From the IMG/VR virus record IMGVR_UViG_2698536610_000003: a stretch of 33,876 bases of DNA; one strand, 5' to 3'. Made by a program: the position numbers and the translations under genes. Of this stretch, positions 583 to 33,876 are shown piece after piece (position 1 is the stretch's first letter; every line of letters starts with the position of its first letter). The notes beneath the pieces were generated by a model that worked only from the letters and a program-made list of their open reading frames with translations, had not been told where the DNA came from and did no database searches. Origin of the DNA: a virus (taxonomy: Duplodnaviria; Heunggongvirae; Uroviricota; Caudoviricetes).

Positions 583-1596
583 TTACTCTACTGTGGACAC
601 TGTGTGGACACTCTCGACCTCAGTACCACCTCTTAGCGGATTAAGAGAAATGGCGTCCTGAAGGTACTCTGGCGCAAAATGAGCGTAAACCATAGTTTGC
701 TCAATCCGCGTGTGACCTAGTATCCGTTGTAGCGTGATAATACTTCCTCCATTAATCATGAAATGAGTGGCAAAGCTGTGCCTTAGTGCATGTGTAGCTT
801 GCCCCATTGGCAAATCCGGTTTTATTGCTTTCATTGTTCGTCTGAAGCGAGGGTAATCAGCATCAGGGAATAAAAAACCTCGTTTGTTATCCGCGATCAT
901 TTTGGCAACAGCCTCTGAGATCGGGACGGTGCGTGGTTTGTTTGTTTTCGTTTTAACAAACGTGACGCGGTTATGGATGATATTTTCTGCTTTCAAACGA
1001 GCTGCTTCTCCCCAACGTGCTCCAGTACTCAGGCAAAGAATCGCAATCTTTTTGTTGTCGCCGTCAAGAGCAGCAAGCAGTAAGGCAATTTCTTCCTGCG
1101 TGAGATAGCCTGTGTCTGGTTTTTCCTCCTTAAGCCTTTTTGTCCCTCTGATAGGGTGCTCACCAAAGAATAACTCCGCTTCAATCAGGGCTGTAAACAT
1201 GCCGCTAATACATGTTAAATCACGATTGATACTCGAAGGTTTAATACCCTGACTTCTTCGGGTGGCGCAGTACTGGCTGATAAGCGATTTCGTAATTTGA
1301 AATGCGCATGGGTCATTCGTTATTTTTGTGAAGATTTCAATTTTCCCAAGATTAGATTTCCCATGCTCTTCGTGTTTACCCTTTAAATCCCACCAGATCT
1401 GTGTCAGCTCCGACAGACGTCGCTTGTCTGTTGGTTTTGATAGCCATTCTTTATTGTGGTGGTTGTACAACGTGTATTTCTCGAAAGCGACAGCTTCGCT
1501 TTTCTTATCAAACTTCCTACGGATGCGTTTTCCATTACGTCCAGTAGGGCGGATGTCCACTTCATATCGACCATCATCGAGTTTTTTGATTGCCAT
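583..1596 (-). CDS. int: tyrosine integrase (P2 Int-like)
   Basis: 337 aa; C-terminal HxxR (HALRHSF) and catalytic Tyr region (TMVYAHF); adjacent to attL; GGAGG-like RBS upstream. Confidence 0.93.
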   Translation of the reverse strand: MAIKKLDDGRYEVDIRPTGRNGKRIRRKFDKKSEAVAFEKYTLYNHHNKEWLSKPTDKRRLSELTQIWWDLKGKHEEHGKSNLGKIEIFTKITNDPCAFQITKSLISQYCATRRSQGIKPSSINRDLTCISGMFTALIEAELFFGEHPIRGTKRLKEEKPDTGYLTQEEIALLLAALDGDNKKIAILCLSTGARWGEAARLKAENIIHNRVTFVKTKTNKPRTVPISEAVAKMIADNKRGFLFPDADYPRFRRTMKAIKPDLPMGQATHALRHSFATHFMINGGSIITLQRILGHTRIEQTMVYAHFAPEYLQDAISLNPLRGGTEVESVHTVSTVE

Positions 1597-3893: not shown

Positions 3894-4165
3894 GTATTCG
3901 TATTGAAATTGGCGAACGTTATGTCGTTACCAGTGACAGCTTTCAGTTTATTCTCCACGAGAAAAAGAGAGCGGAAAGCGGTAAAAACGCCGGTCAGGAA
4001 TGGCTGTCGGTGGTTGGTTATTACCCGAAATTAAGCCAGCTCGTTTCCGGCATGATGCATCACGATATTCTGACCGGAAGCGCAAAGTCTTTTGCTGATT
4101 TAAACGCGCAGGTTGAGCAACTCAGCAAGCGTTGTTCAGAGGCTTTTGGCTCATATGGCCGTTAA
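3890..4165 (+). CDS. small early protein (P2 orf83 position)
   Basis: 91-aa ORF immediately upstream of and overlapping gene A. Confidence 0.6.
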   Translation: MSIRIEIGERYVVTSDSFQFILHEKKRAESGKNAGQEWLSVVGYYPKLSQLVSGMMHHDILTGSAKSFADLNAQVEQLSKRCSEAFGSYGR

Positions 4166-6410
4166 AGCCTCCGGGCGTTTTGTCCCTCCATCAGCATTTG
4201 CCGCAGGCACCGGTAAGGCGTTTACCGGTGCTTATGCATGGAACGCGCCACGCGAGGCTGTCGGGCGCGAAAGACCCCTTACACGTGACGAGATGCGTCA
4301 GGTGCAAGGTGTTTTATCCACGATTAACCGCCTGCCTTACTTTTTGCGCTCGCTGTTTACTTCACGCTATGACTACATCCGGCGCAATAAAAGCCCGGTG
4401 CACGGGTTTTATTTCCTCACATCCACTTTTCAGCGTCGTTTATGGCCGCGCATTGAGCGCGTGAATCAGCGCCATGAAATGAACACCGACGCGTCGTTGC
4501 TGTTTCTGGCAGAGCGTGACCATTATGCGCGTCTGCCGGGGATGAATGACAAGGAACTGAAAAAGTTTGCCGCCCGTATCTCATCGCAGCTTTTCATGAT
4601 GTATGAGGAACTCTGCGATGCATGGGTTGATGCACATGGCGAGAAAGAATCGCTGTTTACGGATGAGGCTCAGGCGCATCTGTATGGTCATGTTGCTGGC
4701 GCTGCACGAGCTTTCAATATTTCCCCTCTCTACTGGAAAAAATACCGTAAAGGACAGATGACCACGAGGCAGGCATATTCTGCCATTGCCCGTCTGTTTA
4801 ACGATGAGTGGTGGACTCATCAGCTTAAAGGTCAGCGTATGCGCTGGCATGAGGCGTTACTGATTGCTGTCGGGGAGGTGAATAAAGACCGTTCTCCTTA
4901 TGCCAGTAAACATGCCATTCGTGATGTGCGTGCGCGCCGCCAGGCAAATCTGGAATTTCTTAAATCGTGTGACCTTGAAAACAGGGAAACCGGCGAGCGC
5001 ATCGACCTTATCAGTAAGGTGATGGGAAGTATTTCTAATCCTGAAATTCGCCGGATGGAGCTGATGAACACCATTGCCGGTATTGAGCGTTACGCCGCCG
5101 CAGAGGGTGATGTGGGGATGTTTATCACGCTGACCGCGCCGTCAAAGTATCACCCGACACGTCAGGTCGGAAAAGGCGAAAGTAAAACCGTCCAGCTAAA
5201 TCACGGCTGGAACGATGAGGCATTTAATCCAAAGGATGCGCAGCGTTATCTCTGCCGCATCTGGAGCCTGATGCGCACGGCATTCAAGGATAATGATTTA
5301 CAGGTCTACGGTTTGCGTGTCGTCGAGCCACACCACGACGGAACGCCGCACTGGCATATGATGCTTTTTTGTAATCCACGTCAGCGTAACCAGATTATCG
5401 AAACCATGCGTCGCTACGCGCTCAAAGAGGATGGCGACGAAAGAGGAGCCGAGCGAAACCGTTTTCAGGCGAAACACCTTAACCGGGGCGGTGCTGCGGG
5501 GTATATCGCGAAATACATTTCAAAAAATATCGACGGCTATGCACTGGATGGTCAGCTCGATAACGATACTGGCAGACCTCTGAAAGATACTGCCGCGGCT
5601 GTTACTGCATGGGCGTCAACGTGGCGCATCCCGCAATTTAAAACGGTTGGTCTGCCGACAATGGGGGCTTACCGTGAACTACGCAAATTGCCTCGCGGCG
5701 TCAGCATTGCTGATGAGTTTGACGAACGCGTCGAGGCTGCACGCGCTGCCGCAGACAGTGGCGATTTTGCGTTGTATATCAGTGCGCAGGGTGGGGCAAA
5801 TGTTCCGCGCGATTGCCAGACTGTCAGAGTCGCCCGTAGCCCGTCGGATGAAGTTAACGAGTACGAGGAAGAAGTCGAGAGAGTGGTCGGCATTTACGCG
5901 CCGCATCTCGGCGCGCGTCATATTCATATCACCAGAACGACGGACTGGCGCATTGTTCCGAAAGTTCCGGTCGTGGAGCCTTTAACTTTAAAAAGCGGCA
6001 TCGCCGCGCCTCGGAGTCCTGTCAATAACTGTGGAAAGCTCACCAGTGGTGATACTTCGTTACCGGCTCCCACACCTTCTGAGCACGCTGCAGCAGTGCT
6101 TAATCTGGTTGATGACGGTGTTATCGAATGGAATGACCCGGAGGTCGTGAGGGTGCTCAGGGGCGCATTAAAACACGGCCTGAGAACACCAAATCGTCAG
6201 CAAAGAAACGGAAGCCCGTTAAAACCACATGAAATTGCACCATCGGCCAGGCTGACCCGGCCGGAACGATTGCAAATTACCCGTATCCGCGTTGACCTTG
6301 CTCAGAACGGTATCAGGCCTCAGCGATGGGAGCTTGAGGCGCTGGCGCGTGGGGCGATGGTGATTTATGATAATAAAAAATTCAAATATCCAGTGATTGA
6401 TGAGTGGTAA
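4155..6410 (+). CDS. A: replication initiation protein A (HUH rolling-circle endonuclease)
   Basis: About 751 aa from ATG 4155 (track starts at 4113; MAVKASGRF matches the P2 A N-terminus as I recall). HUH motif PHWHMML and tandem-tyrosine motif YIAKYISK read directly. Confidence 0.92.
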   Translation: MAVKASGRFVPPSAFAAGTGKAFTGAYAWNAPREAVGRERPLTRDEMRQVQGVLSTINRLPYFLRSLFTSRYDYIRRNKSPVHGFYFLTSTFQRRLWPRIERVNQRHEMNTDASLLFLAERDHYARLPGMNDKELKKFAARISSQLFMMYEELCDAWVDAHGEKESLFTDEAQAHLYGHVAGAARAFNISPLYWKKYRKGQMTTRQAYSAIARLFNDEWWTHQLKGQRMRWHEALLIAVGEVNKDRSPYASKHAIRDVRARRQANLEFLKSCDLENRETGERIDLISKVMGSISNPEIRRMELMNTIAGIERYAAAEGDVGMFITLTAPSKYHPTRQVGKGESKTVQLNHGWNDEAFNPKDAQRYLCRIWSLMRTAFKDNDLQVYGLRVVEPHHDGTPHWHMMLFCNPRQRNQIIETMRRYALKEDGDERGAERNRFQAKHLNRGGAAGYIAKYISKNIDGYALDGQLDNDTGRPLKDTAAAVTAWASTWRIPQFKTVGLPTMGAYRELRKLPRGVSIADEFDERVEAARAAADSGDFALYISAQGGANVPRDCQTVRVARSPSDEVNEYEEEVERVVGIYAPHLGARHIHITRTTDWRIVPKVPVVEPLTLKSGIAAPRSPVNNCGKLTSGDTSLPAPTPSEHAAAVLNLVDDGVIEWNDPEVVRVLRGALKHGLRTPNRQQRNGSPLKPHEIAPSARLTRPERLQITRIRVDLAQNGIRPQRWELEALARGAMVIYDNKKFKYPVIDEW

Positions 6411-6585: not shown

Positions 6586-7869
6586 TTATTGTGGCCAGTC
6601 CCAGTTATCATATTGTTGAATTTTTTCTGATAACACTTGAGGTGCACTACCGTGAGTTACATTTTCAGCATAACCAATCGTACCGACATAGTTAATGTCA
6701 TCAACATCAAGTGTATTGGCCTCCCATGGCCGTATCTTGCGAGTTGGTTCACAGATAGAAACGTCACGATTGATGGTTTTTAACCACGATATATTTATTA
6801 CATTTGCGCCTGCAGCTTTTAGATACATTCTGGCTGTTTCATGAGCATTTCCTTCAGTGCAAAAATCATCAATAACTAATATTTTCTTACCTTTCAATTT
6901 AGGAGGGTTGGTATATCTTTCGCCGGTGATGAGGTTTTTAATAGGGGCAGGATTTAAATTAACGGTGTTTATTTGAGATGTGATGTTTACTTCTTGCTTA
7001 GCTATCCGAGCTTGCTGTGATTTAATAGCTGTTGTATGTCGTAAGAATAGATCTTTTAGATACTTTCCTTTGAATGAGACTGCTAAACCTTTTAGGTCAT
7101 GCTCCATAATGTTTGCTAGTTTATAAGGATCTTCAGCGTTATGTCCAACGTAGGTGGTTATAAAACTTGCTCCTTCACTTAAGCCAGAGAAATAAATGCT
7201 AGCACCAAGATATCTTATCCAAAAATCGGGGCTTCCAACCGATAGCTTTGCGAGGTCTCTTGCATTGGCTGAATACATTGTAAATTCAGGGACATATGTG
7301 CTAAATGGTGCTAAGGCGTAGTAGTGAACATCTTCATTAAAATGCCCTTGCCATCCCCACAACTGCTCTCTTAAGCAAAAAACATCAATAAATCTAGCGA
7401 TTTCTTTGGGTTCTGAAAATTGAAAACCGTACTCAGTAACCGGTTCATACCAGGTCGCATTAATAAATAGGGTATTCCCGTTGGTAGCTGCTTGTAAGTC
7501 TTCCTGAGAACGCCCTACATAGATCATTTCGTTTCGTTTTAATTCTAACGCAGCCATGATGAAATCTATGGCCTTCCCTGTTTGTTTTGCTGGTATGTTG
7601 TTGTCGAGTTCACGGCAAAAGTGAATTGATTCTGGGAATTTCCTTTTTAGGTATTCGTCTAGTGTTACGATCCCGTCATGTGTTCTCACGTTTCTATTTT
7701 TATTTGTCAAGAAGATAACTTTAATCCCTTTTGATGACAAAAACGCAAACAACTTACGTAATTCAGAATCGATTCTAGATTTTAGTTCCTGAGGTTGAGT
7801 GTTAGATGTTAATGGTAATACAACATCTGCGATTGAAAATATAACTGCCTTTAAATACATATTATTCAT
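6586..7869 (-). CDS. PRTase-domain protein (ComF-like) with possible HAD-like N-terminal region
   Basis: 427 aa; PRPP-binding-loop-like KILVIDDFCTEGNAHE at aa 329-344 (compare hhhhDDhhTTGgT); N-terminal 140 aa shows a HAD-like motif order (hhhh-Thr, Lys, GxxxED) but with the first Asp replaced; AT-rich; start ATG overlaps upstream gene as ATGAATAA. Confidence 0.75.
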   Translation of the reverse strand: MNNMYLKAVIFSIADVVLPLTSNTQPQELKSRIDSELRKLFAFLSSKGIKVIFLTNKNRNVRTHDGIVTLDEYLKRKFPESIHFCRELDNNIPAKQTGKAIDFIMAALELKRNEMIYVGRSQEDLQAATNGNTLFINATWYEPVTEYGFQFSEPKEIARFIDVFCLREQLWGWQGHFNEDVHYYALAPFSTYVPEFTMYSANARDLAKLSVGSPDFWIRYLGASIYFSGLSEGASFITTYVGHNAEDPYKLANIMEHDLKGLAVSFKGKYLKDLFLRHTTAIKSQQARIAKQEVNITSQINTVNLNPAPIKNLITGERYTNPPKLKGKKILVIDDFCTEGNAHETARMYLKAAGANVINISWLKTINRDVSICEPTRKIRPWEANTLDVDDINYVGTIGYAENVTHGSAPQVLSEKIQQYDNWDWPQ

Positions 7870-8911
7870 CTCCCAGAAGAGAAAGTTGCTGTGTTTTTAC
7901 ACCGGATGCTGATTTAATTAAGCTTTGCACGTCTTTAAAATCGGATAGTGGAATATTCATTATCGTAGCTGAGTACTCTGACAAGGCATGTTTAATCTCT
8001 TCTTGAGGTGTAGTTCCCCTAAGTAAAGGACAAAGTATCGCTCTTTTTAATTGAGCAGCATATCTCACAGTATGAGATGTCCCACTTTTTAGGCCCCATT
8101 CAACTGGGATCAATACATCACTTAAAGCTGCTTGAATTCTATTTCTACGAACAAAGTTTTCCTGTGATGGTTTTTGGTTTGGTAAATACTCAGTAAGAAT
8201 CAGTCCGCCATTATTTACAATATGGCCTCTCATCTCGCCACTATTTTTGGGATAATTTGAGTTTACGCCAGTACCTAACACAGCAATTGTCGGTATTTTA
8301 AATAACAGGGATGCTTCATGTGCAGATTGATCTATACCATATGCTAAACCGCTTACAGTTGAATAATCCGAATCTATAAATTGCGAGATTACTGCTTGAG
8401 TTAAATAAATTCCAAGTGCGGTTGGGTTTCTGGTGCCGACAACTCCAACACACTTTTTATCTAGCAAGGATACATTGCCTTGAGCAAACAACCAGAAAGG
8501 CGGCTCAGACAGGTCATTCAACTTGTCTGGATAGCTCGGAGAACCATAGTGGATGATTTTGTAACCACTATTATGATAATGTGTGAGTAATATTTTAGCC
8601 GTAGAAATCATGCTGTCCCGAAAAACAGACCAATTGCCTTCATTCAAATAATAAGGTTGGCGATGAAGTTTTACTCCAAGTAGATACTCAAAGTTGGCTA
8701 ATGTTTGACTGGTAACAATGTCTCTAAATCTGATTCCCTTTTGAGCAACTTTATATAGAGTCCAATAACTAACGCCATGTATTTCTGATAGTGCCAACAA
8801 AGCGGCACTTTCTGTGTTCCATCGAGCTGTTTCAATATCCGTCATAATGTTCGCCAAAATGGAAGATTTTTTATCGCTTTTATCATAGGTTTGTATAAAA
8901 GTGTAGCACAT
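7862..8911 (-). CDS. DprA/Smf-like Rossmann-fold protein
   Basis: 349 aa; core VSGLAYGIDQSAHEASL...TIAVLGTGVNSNYPKNS...FVRRNRIQAALSDVLIPVEWGLKSGTSHTVRYAAQLKRA parallels DprA Rossmann signature (SGxAxGID..AH..AL, AVLG.G....YP, RNRI.A.LS); N-terminal helical region; AT-rich. Confidence 0.8.
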   Translation of the reverse strand: MCYTFIQTYDKSDKKSSILANIMTDIETARWNTESAALLALSEIHGVSYWTLYKVAQKGIRFRDIVTSQTLANFEYLLGVKLHRQPYYLNEGNWSVFRDSMISTAKILLTHYHNSGYKIIHYGSPSYPDKLNDLSEPPFWLFAQGNVSLLDKKCVGVVGTRNPTALGIYLTQAVISQFIDSDYSTVSGLAYGIDQSAHEASLLFKIPTIAVLGTGVNSNYPKNSGEMRGHIVNNGGLILTEYLPNQKPSQENFVRRNRIQAALSDVLIPVEWGLKSGTSHTVRYAAQLKRAILCPLLRGTTPQEEIKHALSEYSATIMNIPLSDFKDVQSLIKSASGVKTQQLSLLGDE

Positions 8912-9049
8912 TAAACCAAGACTTTAGAGGGCATGTTCTTGCATCAAACTGCATGTAAAAAAACAAAAAATTAATGCACCTTAGGCCTTATCCAGTCAAT
9001 CTCGAGTGTTCACATGCATCTGCATTAAAACCGCCCCACGAAGCGGGCG

Positions 9050-9068
9050 GGCGAGGCGGGGAAAGCAC
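9050..9068. other. cos: cos site, 19-nt cohesive end sequence ggcgaggcggggaaagcac
   Basis: Exact 19-mer that I recall as the P2 cohesive end, at the expected position between the accessory region and portal gene Q. Confidence 0.75.
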
Positions 9069-9211: not shown

Positions 9212-9233
9212 AAAAAAGCCGCCCGCAGGCGGC
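9212..9233 (-). terminator. rho-independent terminator after Q (minus-strand RNA GCCGCC-UGCG-GGCGGC followed by UUUUUU)
   Basis: Perfect 6-bp GC stem with 4-nt loop and 6-U tract read on the minus strand just past the Q stop codon. Confidence 0.7.
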
Positions 9234-9238
9234 GATGT

Positions 9239-10273
9239 TCAGCCGTTGTCAGTGTCCAGTGAGTAGTTTTTAAAGCGGATGACTTCCTGGCCGAGCCAGC
9301 CGTTTATCTCGCGGATCCTGTCCTGTAGCGGGATAAGCTCATTGCGGACAAAGACCTTTGCCACTTTCTCAATATCGCCCAGCGACCCGACGTTCTCCGG
9401 CTTGCCGCCCATCAACTGAAAGGGGATGCGGTGCGCGTCCAGCAGGTCAGCGGCGCTGGCTTTTTTGATATTAAAAAAATCGTCCTTCGTCGCCACTTCA
9501 CTGAGCGGGATAATTTTAATGCCGTCGGCTTTCCCCTGTGGGGCATAGAGAAACAGGTTTTTAAAGTTGTTGCGGCCTTTCGACTTAACCATGTTTTCGC
9601 GGAGCATTTCGATATCGTTGCGATCCTGCACGGCATCGGTGACGTACATGATGTATCCGGCATGTGCGCCGTTTTCGTAATACTTGCGGCGGAACAGCGT
9701 GGCTGATTCATTCAGCCAGGCAGAGTTAAGGGCGCTGAGATATTCCGGCAGGCCGTACAGCTCCTGATTGATATCCGGCTCCAGCAGGTGAAACACGGAG
9801 CCGGGCGTGAAAGGTGTTGGCTCGTTGAAGGACGGCACCCACCAGTAAATATCTTCTTCCACACCACGGCGGGTATATTTTGCCGGTGAGGTTTCCAGTC
9901 TGATGACCTTACCGGTGGTGCTGTAACGCTTTTCCAGAAACGCATTACCGAACACCAGAAAATCCAGCACAAAGCGGCTGAAATCCTGCTGGGAAAGCCA
10001 CGGATGCGGGATAAATGTCGAGGCCAGAATATTACGTTTGACGTAAATCGGGGAGCTGTGATGCACGGCAGCACGCAGGCTTTTTGCCAGACCGGTAAAG
10101 CTGACCGGTGGCTCATACCATCTGCCGTTACTGATGCACTCGACGTAATCCAGAATGTCACGGCGATCGAGTACCGGCACCGGCTCACCAAAGGTGAATG
10201 CCTCCATTTTCGGGGCGCTGGTGGTCATTGTTTTTGCCGCTGGTCGCGGTGTTTTCCCTTTTTTCTTGCTCAT
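9239..10273 (-). CDS. Q: portal protein Q
   Basis: 344 aa, same size and position as P2 Q; stop/start overlap (ATGA) with P. Confidence 0.93.
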   Translation of the reverse strand: MSKKKGKTPRPAAKTMTTSAPKMEAFTFGEPVPVLDRRDILDYVECISNGRWYEPPVSFTGLAKSLRAAVHHSSPIYVKRNILASTFIPHPWLSQQDFSRFVLDFLVFGNAFLEKRYSTTGKVIRLETSPAKYTRRGVEEDIYWWVPSFNEPTPFTPGSVFHLLEPDINQELYGLPEYLSALNSAWLNESATLFRRKYYENGAHAGYIMYVTDAVQDRNDIEMLRENMVKSKGRNNFKNLFLYAPQGKADGIKIIPLSEVATKDDFFNIKKASAADLLDAHRIPFQLMGGKPENVGSLGDIEKVAKVFVRNELIPLQDRIREINGWLGQEVIRFKNYSLDTDNG

Positions 10274-24107: not shown

Positions 24108-25319
24108 ATGAGAGTAGAATTCACAGAAAGAACAAAGAATGTACTTGCTGGGAGAGCAGGATACCAATGTAGCCATCCTCAATGTTCAATAATAACTATT
24201 GGCCCAGGTGAAAAAGAGGATGAGACATCCAGCATCGGTGAGGCATCACATATTTATAGTGCAGCTAAAAATGGCCCCAGAGGGCAAGGTGGGCTAACAG
24301 AAGAACAGTTAAAAAGCCCTGAGAATGGAATTTGGCTATGTAAGGTACACGCAAGGTTAGTTGATACAAATAATGGAGCAGGATTTACCGCATCACAACT
24401 AATTAGTTGGAAAAAATATCATGAGGAATTCATTAAACATCACCAGGGAAGGATCGTCAATAAATTACATTGGATATCAAAACTATCAATAGTTGATAGT
24501 CCTTTATTTCAAGATTCAATAAGCATCGACTTTGCAAAAATAACAATTATTGAGAGTGATAGTAATGGCGCAGGGAAAACAGCAATATGCGAGTGGTTAT
24601 CAAGTGTCAGTGCAATAAATAGACTTGAGCGCTGGGTTAATTGTGAAAAGCTCAATATTGAAATTCATTTGCACACGCCAGAGCCACACTTAATTGAAGT
24701 GAGTGTAAATAGCGGAAGGATTTCCTATAAAGTTGATTCTCTTGACATTACCTCAAGTCCTTTTCCTTTTGCATGCTATTTTTTTGATTTTAATTACTCA
24801 AAGAAAAAATATAATAAAACATCTAACTTTTTTGCTGAGTTCATAAATATATCGCCAGTGCTACTTGAGAGTCTTTTTGATTATGTATGCAGAAACAAAA
24901 AAGGCATACTTAAATCAATCAGATTTGCTACTCAGGAAGAGCTGGAACAGGATGATGATAGTGAAGATGAAAAAGAGCGAGATATTCATGATATCTATTG
25001 CATGATACAAGGTAATGATTCTTATTTGCCTTTCGAGTGTTTATCTGGAAGTGAAAAAACTAGAGTGCTATTGGATGTTATAATCGCATCATTAAATGAG
25101 CGTTCCAAATACACACCGACACTACTTTTTATAGAAATGAATGAAACCTTTTTATCAAAGGAATCTTTTAAACCATACATTGAAAGATTGAATTCCATTG
25201 AGACTTCATTTCAAACCATCGTAACAACTCATTCGAACATATTAAATGAGTGTTCCGTAGGTTTTCCCCGTTATGAATTGATAAAAGGTATCAACACATC
25301 AACCTTGAGGAAAATATAA
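24108..25319 (+). CDS. HNH endonuclease fused to compact ABC-type (AAA_21-like) ATPase; candidate defence protein
   Basis: 403 aa. N-terminus: Zn-finger/HNH layout C21-x4-C26 ... ASHIY (H48) ... ENGIWLCKVH (N73, C78, H81) ... D86. C-terminus: Walker A-like SNGAGKT (K157), ABC signature-like LSGSEK (312-317), degenerate Walker B TLLFIEMNE (338-346), H-loop IVTTHS (H375). Strongly AT-rich. Confidence 0.75.
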   Translation: MRVEFTERTKNVLAGRAGYQCSHPQCSIITIGPGEKEDETSSIGEASHIYSAAKNGPRGQGGLTEEQLKSPENGIWLCKVHARLVDTNNGAGFTASQLISWKKYHEEFIKHHQGRIVNKLHWISKLSIVDSPLFQDSISIDFAKITIIESDSNGAGKTAICEWLSSVSAINRLERWVNCEKLNIEIHLHTPEPHLIEVSVNSGRISYKVDSLDITSSPFPFACYFFDFNYSKKKYNKTSNFFAEFINISPVLLESLFDYVCRNKKGILKSIRFATQEELEQDDDSEDEKERDIHDIYCMIQGNDSYLPFECLSGSEKTRVLLDVIIASLNERSKYTPTLLFIEMNETFLSKESFKPYIERLNSIETSFQTIVTTHSNILNECSVGFPRYELIKGINTSTLRKI

Positions 25320-32514: not shown

Positions 32515-33876
32515 TCACTTACCGTGGGGATTACGCGTGGTTTCCCCGGAGAAATTACGCATCAGCAGCGCGTAATTGAGCTCAAGATCCTGCGGGACCG
32601 GGAGCCACACAGTATAACCATCGCCTGGTGCTATCGGCATAGCTTCGCCTTTGGCGTTTTCCATGTGCTCAAGGGTAAAATTAATGTTGCCTTGCGGCGT
32701 CATCAGCTCAAGGCTGTCGCCAACGGAGAATTTATTTTTCACCGCTACCGCCGCGAGGTCCCCCTTGCGCTCACCGGTAAACTCACCAACAAACTGCTGG
32801 CGGTCAGAAACTGAATAACCGTATTCGTAGTTCTGATAATCGTCGTGAGTATGACGACGCAGGAAACCTTCGGTATAGCCACGATGCGCCAGACCTTCCA
32901 GAGTTTCCAGCAGGCTGGTATCGAACGGTTTTCCCGCAGCGGCGTCATCGATAGCTTTGCGGTAAACCTGTGCGGTGCGTGCACAATAGTAGAAAGATTT
33001 GGTACGACCTTCGATTTTCAGCGAATGCACGCCCATTTTGGTCAGGCGTTCTACATGGGCGATGGCGCGCAGATCTTTCGAGTTCATGATGTAAGTGCCG
33101 TGCTCATCTTCAAACGCGGTCATATACTCGCCCGGACGCTGGGCCTCTTCGATCATAAACACTTTGTCGGTTGGTGCGCCGATACCCAGCGTCGGCTCAA
33201 CATTTTGCACCGGAATCGGCTCGTACTTGTGTACGATGTTGCCAACATCATCTTCTTTCCCTTCCTGGACGTTGTACTCCCAGCGGCAGGCGTTGGTGCA
33301 GGTGCCCTGGTTCGGGTCGCGCTTGTTGATATAGCCAGAGAGCAGGCAGCGACCGGAGTAGGCCATGCACAGCGCGCCGTGAACGAAGATCTCGATCTCC
33401 ATATCCGGCACCTGATTGCGGATCTCTTCAATCTCTTCCAGCGACAGCTCGCGAGAGAGGATCACGCGGGTCAGGCCCATTTGCTGCCAGAATTTCACCG
33501 TCGCCCAGTTCACGGCGTTAGCCTGCACCGAAAGGTGGATCGGCATTTCAGGGAAGTGCTCACGCACCAGCATAATCAGCCCTGGATCGGACATAATCAG
33601 CGCATCCGGCCCCATTTCCACCACCGGTTTCAGGTCACGGATAAAGGTTTTCAGCTTGGCGTTGTGCGGTGCAATGTTGACCACGACATAAAACTTTTTC
33701 CCCAGCGCGTGGGCTTCATTGATGCCGAGCTGAAGATTTTCGTGGTTGAATTCGTTGTTGCGCACACGCAGGGAATAACGCGGCTGGCCCGCATAAACAG
33801 CATCTGCGCCATAAGCGAAAGCGTAACGCATATTTTTCAGCGTTCCCGCCGGGGAAAGGAGTTCCGGTTTAAACAT
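32515..33876 (-). CDS. yegQ: peptidase U32-family protein YegQ (host flank)
   Basis: 453-aa complete ORF (start ATG at the window edge), sequence I recognise as E. coli YegQ; convergent with ogr. Confidence 0.9.
   Translation of the reverse strand: MFKPELLSPAGTLKNMRYAFAYGADAVYAGQPRYSLRVRNNEFNHENLQLGINEAHALGKKFYVVVNIAPHNAKLKTFIRDLKPVVEMGPDALIMSDPGLIMLVREHFPEMPIHLSVQANAVNWATVKFWQQMGLTRVILSRELSLEEIEEIRNQVPDMEIEIFVHGALCMAYSGRCLLSGYINKRDPNQGTCTNACRWEYNVQEGKEDDVGNIVHKYEPIPVQNVEPTLGIGAPTDKVFMIEEAQRPGEYMTAFEDEHGTYIMNSKDLRAIAHVERLTKMGVHSLKIEGRTKSFYYCARTAQVYRKAIDDAAAGKPFDTSLLETLEGLAHRGYTEGFLRRHTHDDYQNYEYGYSVSDRQQFVGEFTGERKGDLAAVAVKNKFSVGDSLELMTPQGNINFTLEHMENAKGEAMPIAPGDGYTVWLPVPQDLELNYALLMRNFSGETTRNPHGK

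What the first reader, a model, noticed from the sequence alone, without database searches (positions are those of the whole stretch)
6586..7869. PRTase protein has a non-canonical PRPP loop and a possibly degenerate HAD-like N-terminus
The PRPP-binding signature reads ILVIDDFCTEGNAHE rather than hhhhDDhhTTGgT, keeping the acidic pair but replacing the Thr/Gly-rich loop. The N-terminal 140 aa have HAD-like motif order (VIFLT, AKQTGK, VGRSQED) but the nucleophilic Asp position reads SIADV. This suggests the protein may bind a nucleotide or PRPP-like ligand as a sensor or modifier rather than act as a standard salvage enzyme; PRTase domains also occur as effectors in some retron systems.
Basis: inference. 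Interest (0 to 1): 0.55.

Follow-up and report, generated by a model that had tools for sequence, protein, structure and literature searches.

The report
ShosT toxin in P2 prophage hotspot
This gene encodes ShosT, the already crystallised toxin of the ShosTA anti-phage toxin-antitoxin system, carried with its DprA-like antitoxin in the known defence hotspot of a P2-like prophage, so the finding is a correct rediscovery, not something new.

Summary
The protein is 427/427 identical to crystallised ShosT from E. coli APEC O1 (PDB 8ZVB/C/D, 9W2P/Q). The gene just upstream is its DprA-like antitoxin ShosA. The pair lies between P2 gene A and an exact P2 cos site, the hotspot where Rousset et al. 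(2022) validated this system against T7 and lambda. Published structures show a HAD-fold N-terminal domain that binds phosphate and a PRTase domain that binds PRPP-Mg. D331A/D332A abolishes toxicity, and the acceptor is unknown. The 'non-canonical PRPP loop' is overstated: it aligns without gaps to canonical loops and keeps DD, T and G. The 'degenerate HAD' observation holds and applies to a whole clade. None of 42 ShosT-proper representatives has the nucleophile Asp or the first motif IV Asp, whereas a sister ShosA-linked clade keeps both (52/54, 47/54). That sits uneasily with the published 'pyrophosphatase' label. The closest solved non-self structure to the PRTase domain is the competence protein ComFC, not APRT. 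Verdict: already known; low interest, with two modest additions.

The parts
6586..7869 (-). shosT ORF (427 aa as listed; the probable true start is the ATG at 7860, giving the 424-aa protein of the published numbering)
   Evidence: One search lists the ORF. PADLOC ShosT PDLC03012, E=4e-296, covering 1-427 of 427; 427/427 identical to PDB 8ZVB/8ZVC/8ZVD; the GGGAG Shine-Dalgarno sequence lies 9 nt upstream of M4, and the published residue numbers equal window numbers minus 3.
7369..7869 (-). N-terminal HAD-fold domain (window residues 1-167; published 1-164)
7822..7848 (-). Degenerate HAD motif I (AVIFSIADV): Ser12 replaces the nucleophile Asp and Ala14 replaces Asp+2
   Evidence: This position is G/S/A/N/C in 41 of 42 clade A sequences (one gapped) and never Asp; it is Asp in 52 of 54 clade B sequences.
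7693..7719 (-). HAD motif II region (VIFLTNKNR): Thr55, Asn56, Lys57 and Arg59, which are the published phosphate contacts N53, K54 and R56
   Evidence: N56 is conserved (81 of 96). R59 is not conserved (Trp in 25 of 42 clade A sequences; a gap in clade B).
7573..7590 (-). HAD motif III (AKQTGK) with Lys95 (published K92)
   Evidence: Lys in 89 and Arg in 6 of 96 sequences.
7498..7518 (-). HAD motif IV remnant (VGRSQED): Arg120 replaces the first Asp, and Asp124 is retained
   Evidence: The first Asp position is N/S/A/G/R/K/M in clade A (0 Asp of 42) and Asp in 47 of 54 clade B sequences. D124 is present in 95 of 96.
6589..7368 (-). C-terminal PRTase domain (window residues 168-427; published 165-424)
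6838..6882 (-). PRPP loop ILVIDDFCTEGNAHE (D334 and D335 are the published D331 and D332)
   Evidence: D334 is present in 96 of 96, D335 in 94, T338 in 94 and G340 in 90. D331A/D332A abolishes toxicity.
7862..8911 (-). shosA ORF, the DprA-like antitoxin (probable true start is the ATG at 8845, giving 327 aa). Its stop codon lies 1 nt before the M4 start of shosT
   Evidence: Pfam DNA_processg_A, E=8e-60. PADLOC ShosA, E=5e-231, aligned from residue 23; matches PDB 9VZO with one substitution, and 8ZVA; sequence around the start codon.
9050..9068 (+). P2 cos cohesive-end sequence, marking the hotspot boundary
   Evidence: exact 19-nt match, with 0.01 matches expected by chance. The query sequence was recalled from memory.
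4113..6410 (+). P2 gpA-like replication endonuclease (conserved anchor gene on one side of the hotspot)
   Evidence: annotated as replication endonuclease or gpA in matching records.
9239..10273 (-). P2 Q-like portal protein (conserved anchor gene on the other side)

Best explanation
The gene is shosT, the toxin of the ShosTA type IV toxin-antitoxin / abortive-infection system. It is carried as accessory cargo in the cos-adjacent defence hotspot of a P2-like prophage, together with shosA, a DprA-like antitoxin. How it works is taken from the literature on the identical protein. The C-terminal PRTase domain binds PRPP-Mg in a near-canonical PRPP loop, and toxicity depends on that site. ShosT perturbs purine metabolism, and the cell suffers DNA damage or duplications, filaments and dies. 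ShosA does not touch ShosT. It binds ssDNA and RecA and counteracts the damage. Phage infection removes that protection, either because T7 Gp0.7 shuts off host expression and unstable ShosA decays, or because phage ssDNA competes for ShosA and RecA. Two steps are inferred, not shown: that ShosT turns PRPP over (transfer to an unknown acceptor, or net PRPP depletion), and what the N-terminal domain contributes. My reading of that domain is that in this clade it is a HAD fold that still binds phosphate or pyrophosphate but cannot use the canonical aspartyl-phosphate chemistry. It would therefore be an accessory module at most, not the driver of toxicity.
Against: No phosphoribosyl transfer or PRPP consumption by ShosT has been demonstrated, and the acceptor is unknown. 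The two papers propose different triggers. Pu et al. measured PPi hydrolysis in vitro and found orthophosphate in the N-terminal site after soaking with PPi, so that domain may be catalytic by a non-canonical route despite lacking the nucleophile. Nothing was tested experimentally on this particular prophage.
Confidence: 0.85

Rival explanations
1. ShosT is a non-catalytic PRPP (or nucleotide) sensor or regulator, as the first reader proposed and as Yang et al. list as their second model. Ligand binding would switch an activity or interaction that causes toxicity, without any phosphoribosyl transfer.
For: ShosT binds PRPP, but no acceptor has been found and none of the tested purines binds. 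Yang et al. explicitly keep a 'PRPP sensor' model open. The nearest structural relative, ComFC, also binds PRPP and NMPs without demonstrated turnover. PurR and PyrR are precedents for regulatory PRT domains.
Against: The full catalytic-type site is conserved across 96 diverse homologues: the DD pair, T338, G340, R288, H243 and Q299. ShosT has no recognisable DNA- or RNA-binding or output domain beyond the HAD and PRT folds. Metabolomics shows a shift in the purine pathway.
Confidence: 0.1
2. ShosT is a ComFC-like PRTase whose real target is nucleic acid. It would bind or phosphoribosylate ssDNA (or a DNA-bound factor), creating lesions that the ssDNA-binding, RecA-recruiting ShosA prevents or repairs. 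This would be analogous to DarT/DarG.
Against: There is no evidence that ShosT binds DNA. ShosT lacks ComFC's Zn-finger N-terminal domain. Sequence profiles do not place ShosT closer to ComF than to APRT (E=2e-5 against 3.4e-5, over the PRPP loop only). The gap in structural scores is modest. Metabolomics points to the purine pool.
Confidence: 0.12
3. The N-terminal domain is a genuine pyrophosphatase that drives the PRTase reaction forward by removing PPi (the Pu et al. model), meaning the HAD site is not degenerate in any functional sense.
For: Pu et al. report in vitro PPi consumption by ShosT and orthophosphate in the HAD site after PPi soaking. The phosphate sits at canonical HAD motif II and III positions. 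K95, N56 and D124 are strongly conserved.
Confidence: 0.25
4. It is an ordinary housekeeping salvage PRTase or HAD phosphatase that happens to sit in a prophage.
For: Only the weak Pfam matches to PF00156 and PF00702.
Against: It is identical to a demonstrated toxin. It lies in a low-GC accessory island in a defence hotspot. It is paired with a DprA-like antitoxin. It is present in only about 30 of 5426 complete E. coli genomes. No purine binds.
Confidence: 0.01

Closest known systems
ShosT of the E. coli APEC O1 ShosTA system (PDB 8ZVB/8ZVC/8ZVD, 9W2P/9W2Q; Pu et al. 2025, Yang et al. 2026)
   Same: The amino-acid sequence is identical over all 427 residues. It has the same DprA-like partner, which differs by one substitution from 9VZO, and the same two-gene operon layout.
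   Different: Nothing of substance. The ORF as listed begins three codons upstream of the start implied by the published numbering.
The DprA + PRTase system of the P2 cos-adjacent hotspot (Rousset et al. 2022)
   Same: The same gene pair sits in the same position, between gene A and cos of a P2-like prophage. The key to their Figure 5 lists a HAD domain label.
   Different: I did not check whether the tested clone was this exact allele.
HAD-intact ShosT clade ('clade B'; best match PADLOC ShosT model PDLC03962)
   Same: It has the same HAD + PRTase architecture and the same PRPP-site residues. The gene lies immediately downstream of, and overlaps, a DprA-like gene in 3 of 3 loci examined (L001, L002/L003, L004).
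   Different: It keeps the HAD nucleophile Asp (52/54) and the motif IV Asp (47/54). It is only about 25-35% identical to the window protein and lacks the R56-containing insertion.
ComFC / ComF competence protein (H. pylori, PDB 7P0H)
   Same: It is the closest solved non-self structure to the PRTase domain. It binds PRPP-Mg, has a longer than canonical PPi loop and no demonstrated turnover, and it functions alongside DprA.
   Different: ComFC has an N-terminal 4-Cys Zn finger instead of a HAD domain and a fully canonical DDIITTGTTL loop. It binds ssDNA and is not toxic. There is no specific similarity at the sequence level.
PsyrT/RqlH (PsyrTA) and retron type III PRTase effectors
   Same: These are PRTase-domain toxins or effectors in abortive-infection systems. 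PsyrT is also neutralised by a DprA-like antitoxin.
   Different: PsyrT fuses the PRTase to a RecQ-like helicase, not to a HAD domain. Retron effectors depend on a reverse transcriptase and msDNA, and neither is present here. Only 3 of 48 clade B sequences, and not the window protein, touch the PsyrT model.
BT2127, the HAD-family inorganic pyrophosphatase of Bacteroides thetaiotaomicron (PDB 3QU2)
   Different: As a catalytically active HAD enzyme, BT2127 would use the Asp nucleophile and Mg (general knowledge of the superfamily; I did not read the BT2127 paper or inspect its sequence). ShosT has Ser/Ala at motif I and Arg at the motif IV Asp. Sixteen other HAD structures score as well or better.

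Membership tests
ShosT (toxin of ShosTA) | Full-length sequence match to the ShosT profile and to the reference protein | tested here: met
   PADLOC PDLC03012, E=4e-296, covering 1-427 of 427; 427/427 identical to PDB 8ZVB.
ShosT (toxin of ShosTA) | Two-domain architecture: HAD-fold N-terminal domain plus PRTase C-terminal domain | tested here: met
ShosT (toxin of ShosTA) | Adjacent, co-oriented DprA-like ShosA gene | tested here: met
   ShosA lies at 7862..8911 (-) and its stop codon is 1 nt before the M4 start of shosT.
ShosT (toxin of ShosTA) | PRPP-contact residues required for toxicity (D331, D332, R285, K280, H240) | tested here: met
   all are present at window positions +3; they are conserved in the family.
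ShosT (toxin of ShosTA) | Toxicity neutralised by ShosA, and anti-phage activity | not testable with these tools
   Shown in the literature for the identical sequence but not tested on this prophage.
Type I phosphoribosyltransferase (PRT family, PF00156) | PRT fold with PPi, flexible and PRPP loops | tested here: met
   structural matches to many PRTases; the loops are described in the crystal structures.
Type I phosphoribosyltransferase (PRT family, PF00156) | Sequence signature of the PRPP loop at family threshold | tested here: not met
   Pfam gives 22 bits against the gathering cutoff of 26.3; 10 of 13 positions of PS00103 (pattern recalled from memory), failing at F336, C337 and E339. The DD pair, T338 and G340 are kept and the loop aligns without gaps.
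Type I phosphoribosyltransferase (PRT family, PF00156) | Catalysed transfer of phosphoribosyl from PRPP to a defined acceptor | not testable with these tools
   The literature reports PRPP binding only; the acceptor is unknown.
HAD superfamily phosphatase/pyrophosphatase | HAD Rossmannoid fold | tested here: met
HAD superfamily phosphatase/pyrophosphatase | Motif I DxD with the nucleophilic Asp | tested here: not met
   Ser12 and Ala14. No Asp at the nucleophile position in 42 clade A sequences.
HAD superfamily phosphatase/pyrophosphatase | Motif II Ser/Thr and motif III Lys | tested here: met
   Thr55 and Lys95. Both regions contact phosphate in the crystal structure.
HAD superfamily phosphatase/pyrophosphatase | Motif IV acidic pair (GDxxxD) | tested here: not met
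   the first Asp is replaced by Arg120 (N/S/A/G in the rest of the clade). Only the second Asp, D124, is kept.
ComF/ComFC competence proteins | PRT domain of ComFC type | tested here: inconclusive
   ComFC is the best non-self structural hit. The sequence profile does not favour YhgH over APT, and no NCBIfam family, ComF-type or other, scored at E<=0.001.
ComF/ComFC competence proteins | N-terminal four-Cys Zn-finger domain | tested here: not met
   The N-terminal domain has the HAD fold. The sequence has four isolated Cys residues and no CxxC pair (read directly from the translation).
Retron-associated PRTase effector | Adjacent reverse transcriptase and msr/msd ncRNA | tested here: not met
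   shosA and shosT are the only ORFs of 50 aa or more in the island between gene A and cos. No RNA search was run.

The most novel reading that the evidence does not exclude
ShosTA may be a weaponised derivative of the natural-transformation ssDNA-handling pair ComFC and DprA. On this reading the ComFC-like PRTase domain of ShosT uses PRPP to act on ssDNA or DNA bases rather than on a free purine. The ssDNA- and RecA-binding ShosA would shield or repair that target, and the HAD domain would be a phosphatase in the ancestral clade that became a non-catalytic phosphate-binding module in the enterobacterial clade.
Probability: 0.12. Interest if true: 0.7.

Novelty: already known. Interest (0 to 1): 0.15.

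Why it matters
As a finding it matters little. The protein, its structure, its partner, its genomic niche and its defence phenotype are all published. Two by-products may help people working on ShosTA. First, the crystallised ShosT belongs to a clade that has uniformly lost the HAD nucleophile and the first motif IV Asp, while a sister ShosA-linked clade keeps both. The 'coupled pyrophosphatase' model should therefore be re-tested with conserved-site mutants (K92, D121) and with a clade B protein. The R56A mutant used so far targets a residue that is not conserved. Second, the nearest solved structure is ComFC, the DprA partner in natural transformation, which suggests testing ShosT for nucleic-acid binding when searching for the missing acceptor.

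Tried and rejected
1. The search for related loci in genome contigs failed. The clade B alignment had no sufficiently conserved stretch, and the single protein P0097 gave no confirmed relative. I used the search for homologous proteins and the look-up of encoding contigs instead.
2. The afdb50 fold library was unavailable, so I ran Foldseek against the PDB.
3. Sequence-level placement of the PRTase domain was uninformative. The ShosT family profile against E. coli YhgH (ComF family) and against APT gave equally weak matches confined to the PRPP loop.
4. NCBIfam has no model that matches ShosT. PHROGs has an exact family of unknown function (phrog_10564).
5. The promoter scan of the island found no more sites than expected by chance (7 against 8.7), so I assign no promoter.
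6. I rejected the housekeeping salvage enzyme reading. I also rejected the retron effector reading because there is no RT gene.
7. I rejected 'non-canonical PRPP loop' as the key feature, because the loop aligns without gaps to canonical loops and holds PRPP in the crystal structures.

Full report
**What is at the coordinates**

The ORF at 6586..7869 on the minus strand encodes 427 aa. Pfam sees both domains only below threshold. Pribosyltran scores 22 bits against a cutoff of 26.3, and HAD Hydrolase scores 21.7 bits against 26.4. This explains why a reader without tools judged both domains atypical.

**What it is**

PADLOC matches the protein end to end to ShosT (PDLC03012, E=4e-296, 1-427 of 427). 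It matches the overlapping upstream ORF (7862..8911, minus strand) to ShosA (E=5e-231), and Pfam calls that ORF DNA_processg_A/DprA at E=8e-60. Against the PDB the protein is 427/427 identical to ShosT chains 8ZVB/8ZVC/8ZVD, and identical over residues 3-427 to 9W2P/9W2Q. The neighbour matches ShosA 9VZO with one substitution, and 8ZVA. The crystallised system was synthesised from E. coli APEC O1.

Published residue numbers equal window numbers minus three. N53, K54, R56, K92, Y196, H240, K280, R285, Q296, D331, D332, E336, G337 and N338 all map correctly. A GGGAG Shine-Dalgarno sequence lies 9 nt upstream of the fourth codon (ATG at 7860) and directly abuts the first ATG. The true start is therefore probably M4, one nucleotide after the shosA stop codon. 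ShosA probably starts at the ATG at 8845, which is M23 of the listed ORF. Both the PADLOC profile and the PDB constructs begin there.

**Context**

The window is a P2-like (Peduovirus) prophage, 96-97% identical to P2 and its relatives outside the cargo regions. It has an integrase at 583..1596 and a host Peptidase_U32 gene at the right end. The shosTA pair occupies a low-GC island (0.38 against about 0.55). The island lies between the gpA-like replication gene (4113..6410) and an exact copy of the 19-nt P2 cos sequence at 9050..9068 (the query sequence was recalled from memory). The Q portal gene follows at 9239..10273.

This is the cos-adjacent hotspot described by Rousset et al. 2022. They cloned a 'DprA + PRTase' system from it and showed protection against T7 and lambda. 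The key to their Figure 5 also lists a HAD domain label. Millman et al. 2022 confirmed ShosTA as a defence system and noted the parallel with retron PRTase effectors. About 30 of 5426 complete E. coli genomes carry the whole island.

**Mechanism as published, for the identical protein**

- ShosT has an N-terminal Rossmann 'hydrolase' domain (1-164). It resembles the HAD-family pyrophosphatase BT2127, binds phosphate through N53, K54, R56 and K92, and shows Mg-independent PPi hydrolysis in vitro.
- It has a C-terminal PRTase domain (165-424) that binds PRPP-Mg through its PPi, flexible and PRPP loops.
- D331A/D332A and R285E abolish toxicity. R56A has only a marginal effect.
- No tested purine binds, and the acceptor is unknown.
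- ShosT expression perturbs purine metabolism and causes filamentation and genome duplications.
- ShosA does not bind ShosT. It binds ssDNA and RecA, and both activities are needed for neutralisation.
- Proposed triggers are T7 Gp0.7 shutting off host expression combined with ShosA instability, or phage ssDNA competing for the ShosA-RecA interaction.
- Yang et al. call ShosT a non-canonical PRTase because of its nine-residue PPi loop, its long flexible loop, its six-stranded sheet and its monomeric state. The PRPP loop is not among their reasons. They leave two models open: PRPP depletion or PRPP sensing.

**Independent checks made here**

**The PRPP loop**

The loop aligns without gaps to canonical PRTases:

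| Protein | PRPP loop |
|---|---|
| ShosT | GKKILVIDDFCTEGNAHETA |
| 2P1Z | GKKVLVVEDTTTTGNSPLTA |
| 6FSP | GKKVAIVDDVVSTGSTLAG |
| E. coli YhgH | DDVVTTGST |
| E. coli APT | DDLLATGGT |

It satisfies 10 of 13 positions of PROSITE PS00103 as I recall the pattern, failing at F336, C337 and E339. Across 96 diverse homologues, D334 is present in 96, D335 in 94, T338 in 94 and G340 in 90.

Neither paper mentions HAD motif I or the nucleophile. A search of 1.84 billion representative proteins found 331 relatives at E<=0.001 and 54 at E<=1e-30. Aligning the query with 95 full-length relatives splits them into two clades.

| Position (window numbering) | Clade A (n=42, includes the query) | Clade B (n=54) |
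|---|---|---|
| Motif I nucleophile (12) | G21, S14, A3, N2, C1, one gapped; never Asp | Asp in 52 |
| Motif IV first Asp (120) | N27, S4, A4, G3, R2, K1, M1; never Asp | Asp in 47 |
| Motif III Lys (95) | K37, R5 | K52, R1, D1 |
| Motif IV second Asp (124) | Asp in 42 | Asp in 53 |

- Both clades also keep N56 (81 of 96 overall).
- A profile-profile alignment (probability 100%, E=1.4e-82) confirms the register.
- All 48 clade B members tested hit the PADLOC ShosT models.
- The clade B profile hits bona fide HAD phosphatases at E down to 8e-15.
- In three independent metagenomic loci, the clade B gene overlaps the end of a DprA-family gene lying immediately upstream.
- R56, the residue mutated to make the 'PPase mutant', is not conserved. 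It is Trp in 25 of 42 clade A sequences and falls in an insertion that clade B lacks.

Inference: the ancestral ShosT carried a catalytically competent HAD phosphatase. The clade containing the crystallised protein lost canonical aspartyl-phosphate and Mg chemistry but retained the phosphate-binding residues. This fits the Mg-independence and the marginal R56A phenotype reported by Pu et al. It makes the 'coupled pyrophosphatase' step the weakest link of the published model. It does not disprove their in vitro activity.

ComFC binds PRPP and NMPs with no demonstrated turnover. It has a longer than canonical PPi loop, binds ssDNA, and interacts with DprA in other species. Neither ShosTA structure paper mentions ComF. 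Iyer et al. 2017 had already linked mobile-element PRTases to ComFC-like PRTases, and linked the PRTase-helicase + DprA system to competence proteins.

At the sequence level the ShosT profile does not prefer YhgH (ComF family, E=2e-5) over APT (E=3.4e-5), and both matches cover only the PRPP loop. The resemblance is therefore structural and modest, and I rate ComF membership as inconclusive. It does keep alive a speculative reading in which ShosT acts on ssDNA rather than on a free base.

**Verdict**

- The object is already known in full: sequence, structures, partner, niche and phenotype.
- The residual value is limited to the clade-wide loss of the HAD catalytic residues, contrasted with an intact sister clade, and to ComFC being the nearest structural neighbour.

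Noticed in passing
window 24108..25319 (+): A second low-GC cargo gene (GC about 0.36, 403 aa) lies between the tail-fibre assembly gene and the tail sheath gene, at the P2 Z/fun position. Its N-terminal ~120 residues match PADLOC candidate PDC-M68A (E=3.6e-22) and the HNH/endonuclease effector domains of CBASS-type SAVED-HNH proteins. The C-terminus has weak AAA-like hits (GajA, PtuA). It has no Pfam or NCBIfam family. RefSeq names it 'HNH endonuclease'. The whole 2-kb stretch occurs in only 10 of 5426 E. coli genomes. It is probably an uncharacterised single-gene defence candidate.
   Followed up: partly
window 7858..7869 and 8843..8911 (-): Both listed ORFs probably start too early. shosT most likely starts at M4 (ATG at 7860, 9 nt after GGGAG), which leaves a 1-nt gap after the shosA stop instead of an 8-nt overlap. 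shosA most likely starts at M23 (ATG at 8845), matching the PADLOC profile and the PDB constructs.
   Followed up: yes
L001 2755..5215; L002 2848..5173; L004 2820..5164: A sister clade of ShosT keeps intact HAD motifs (DxD/DxS...T and GD) and is also coupled to an upstream, overlapping DprA-like gene. Its neighbours look like defence islands: an AAA_15/AAA_21 ATPase plus DUF4276 in L001, a T1R_D3-like protein in L002, and an N6_Mtase/Eco57I restriction-modification gene in L004.
   Followed up: partly
window residues 207 and 294 of ShosT (published 204 and 291): Two residue labels in Yang et al. 2026 (H204 and S291) do not match the sequence, which has Ala and Val at those positions. H204 is probably a misprint for H240, and S291 for a nearby Ser such as published S281 or S295.
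   Followed up: partly
window 583..1596 (-) and 32515..33876 (-): The window holds the whole prophage plus host flanks. There is a P2-type integrase near the left end, and a host Peptidase_U32 family gene running off the right end.
   Followed up: no
window 9218..9233 and 9031..9050 (-): Two strong terminator-like hairpins on the minus strand flank cos. One lies just after the Q stop codon. The other abuts cos on its shosA-proximal side, upstream of shosA. Terminator-like sites are enriched in this stretch (5 found against 1.8 expected).
   Followed up: no
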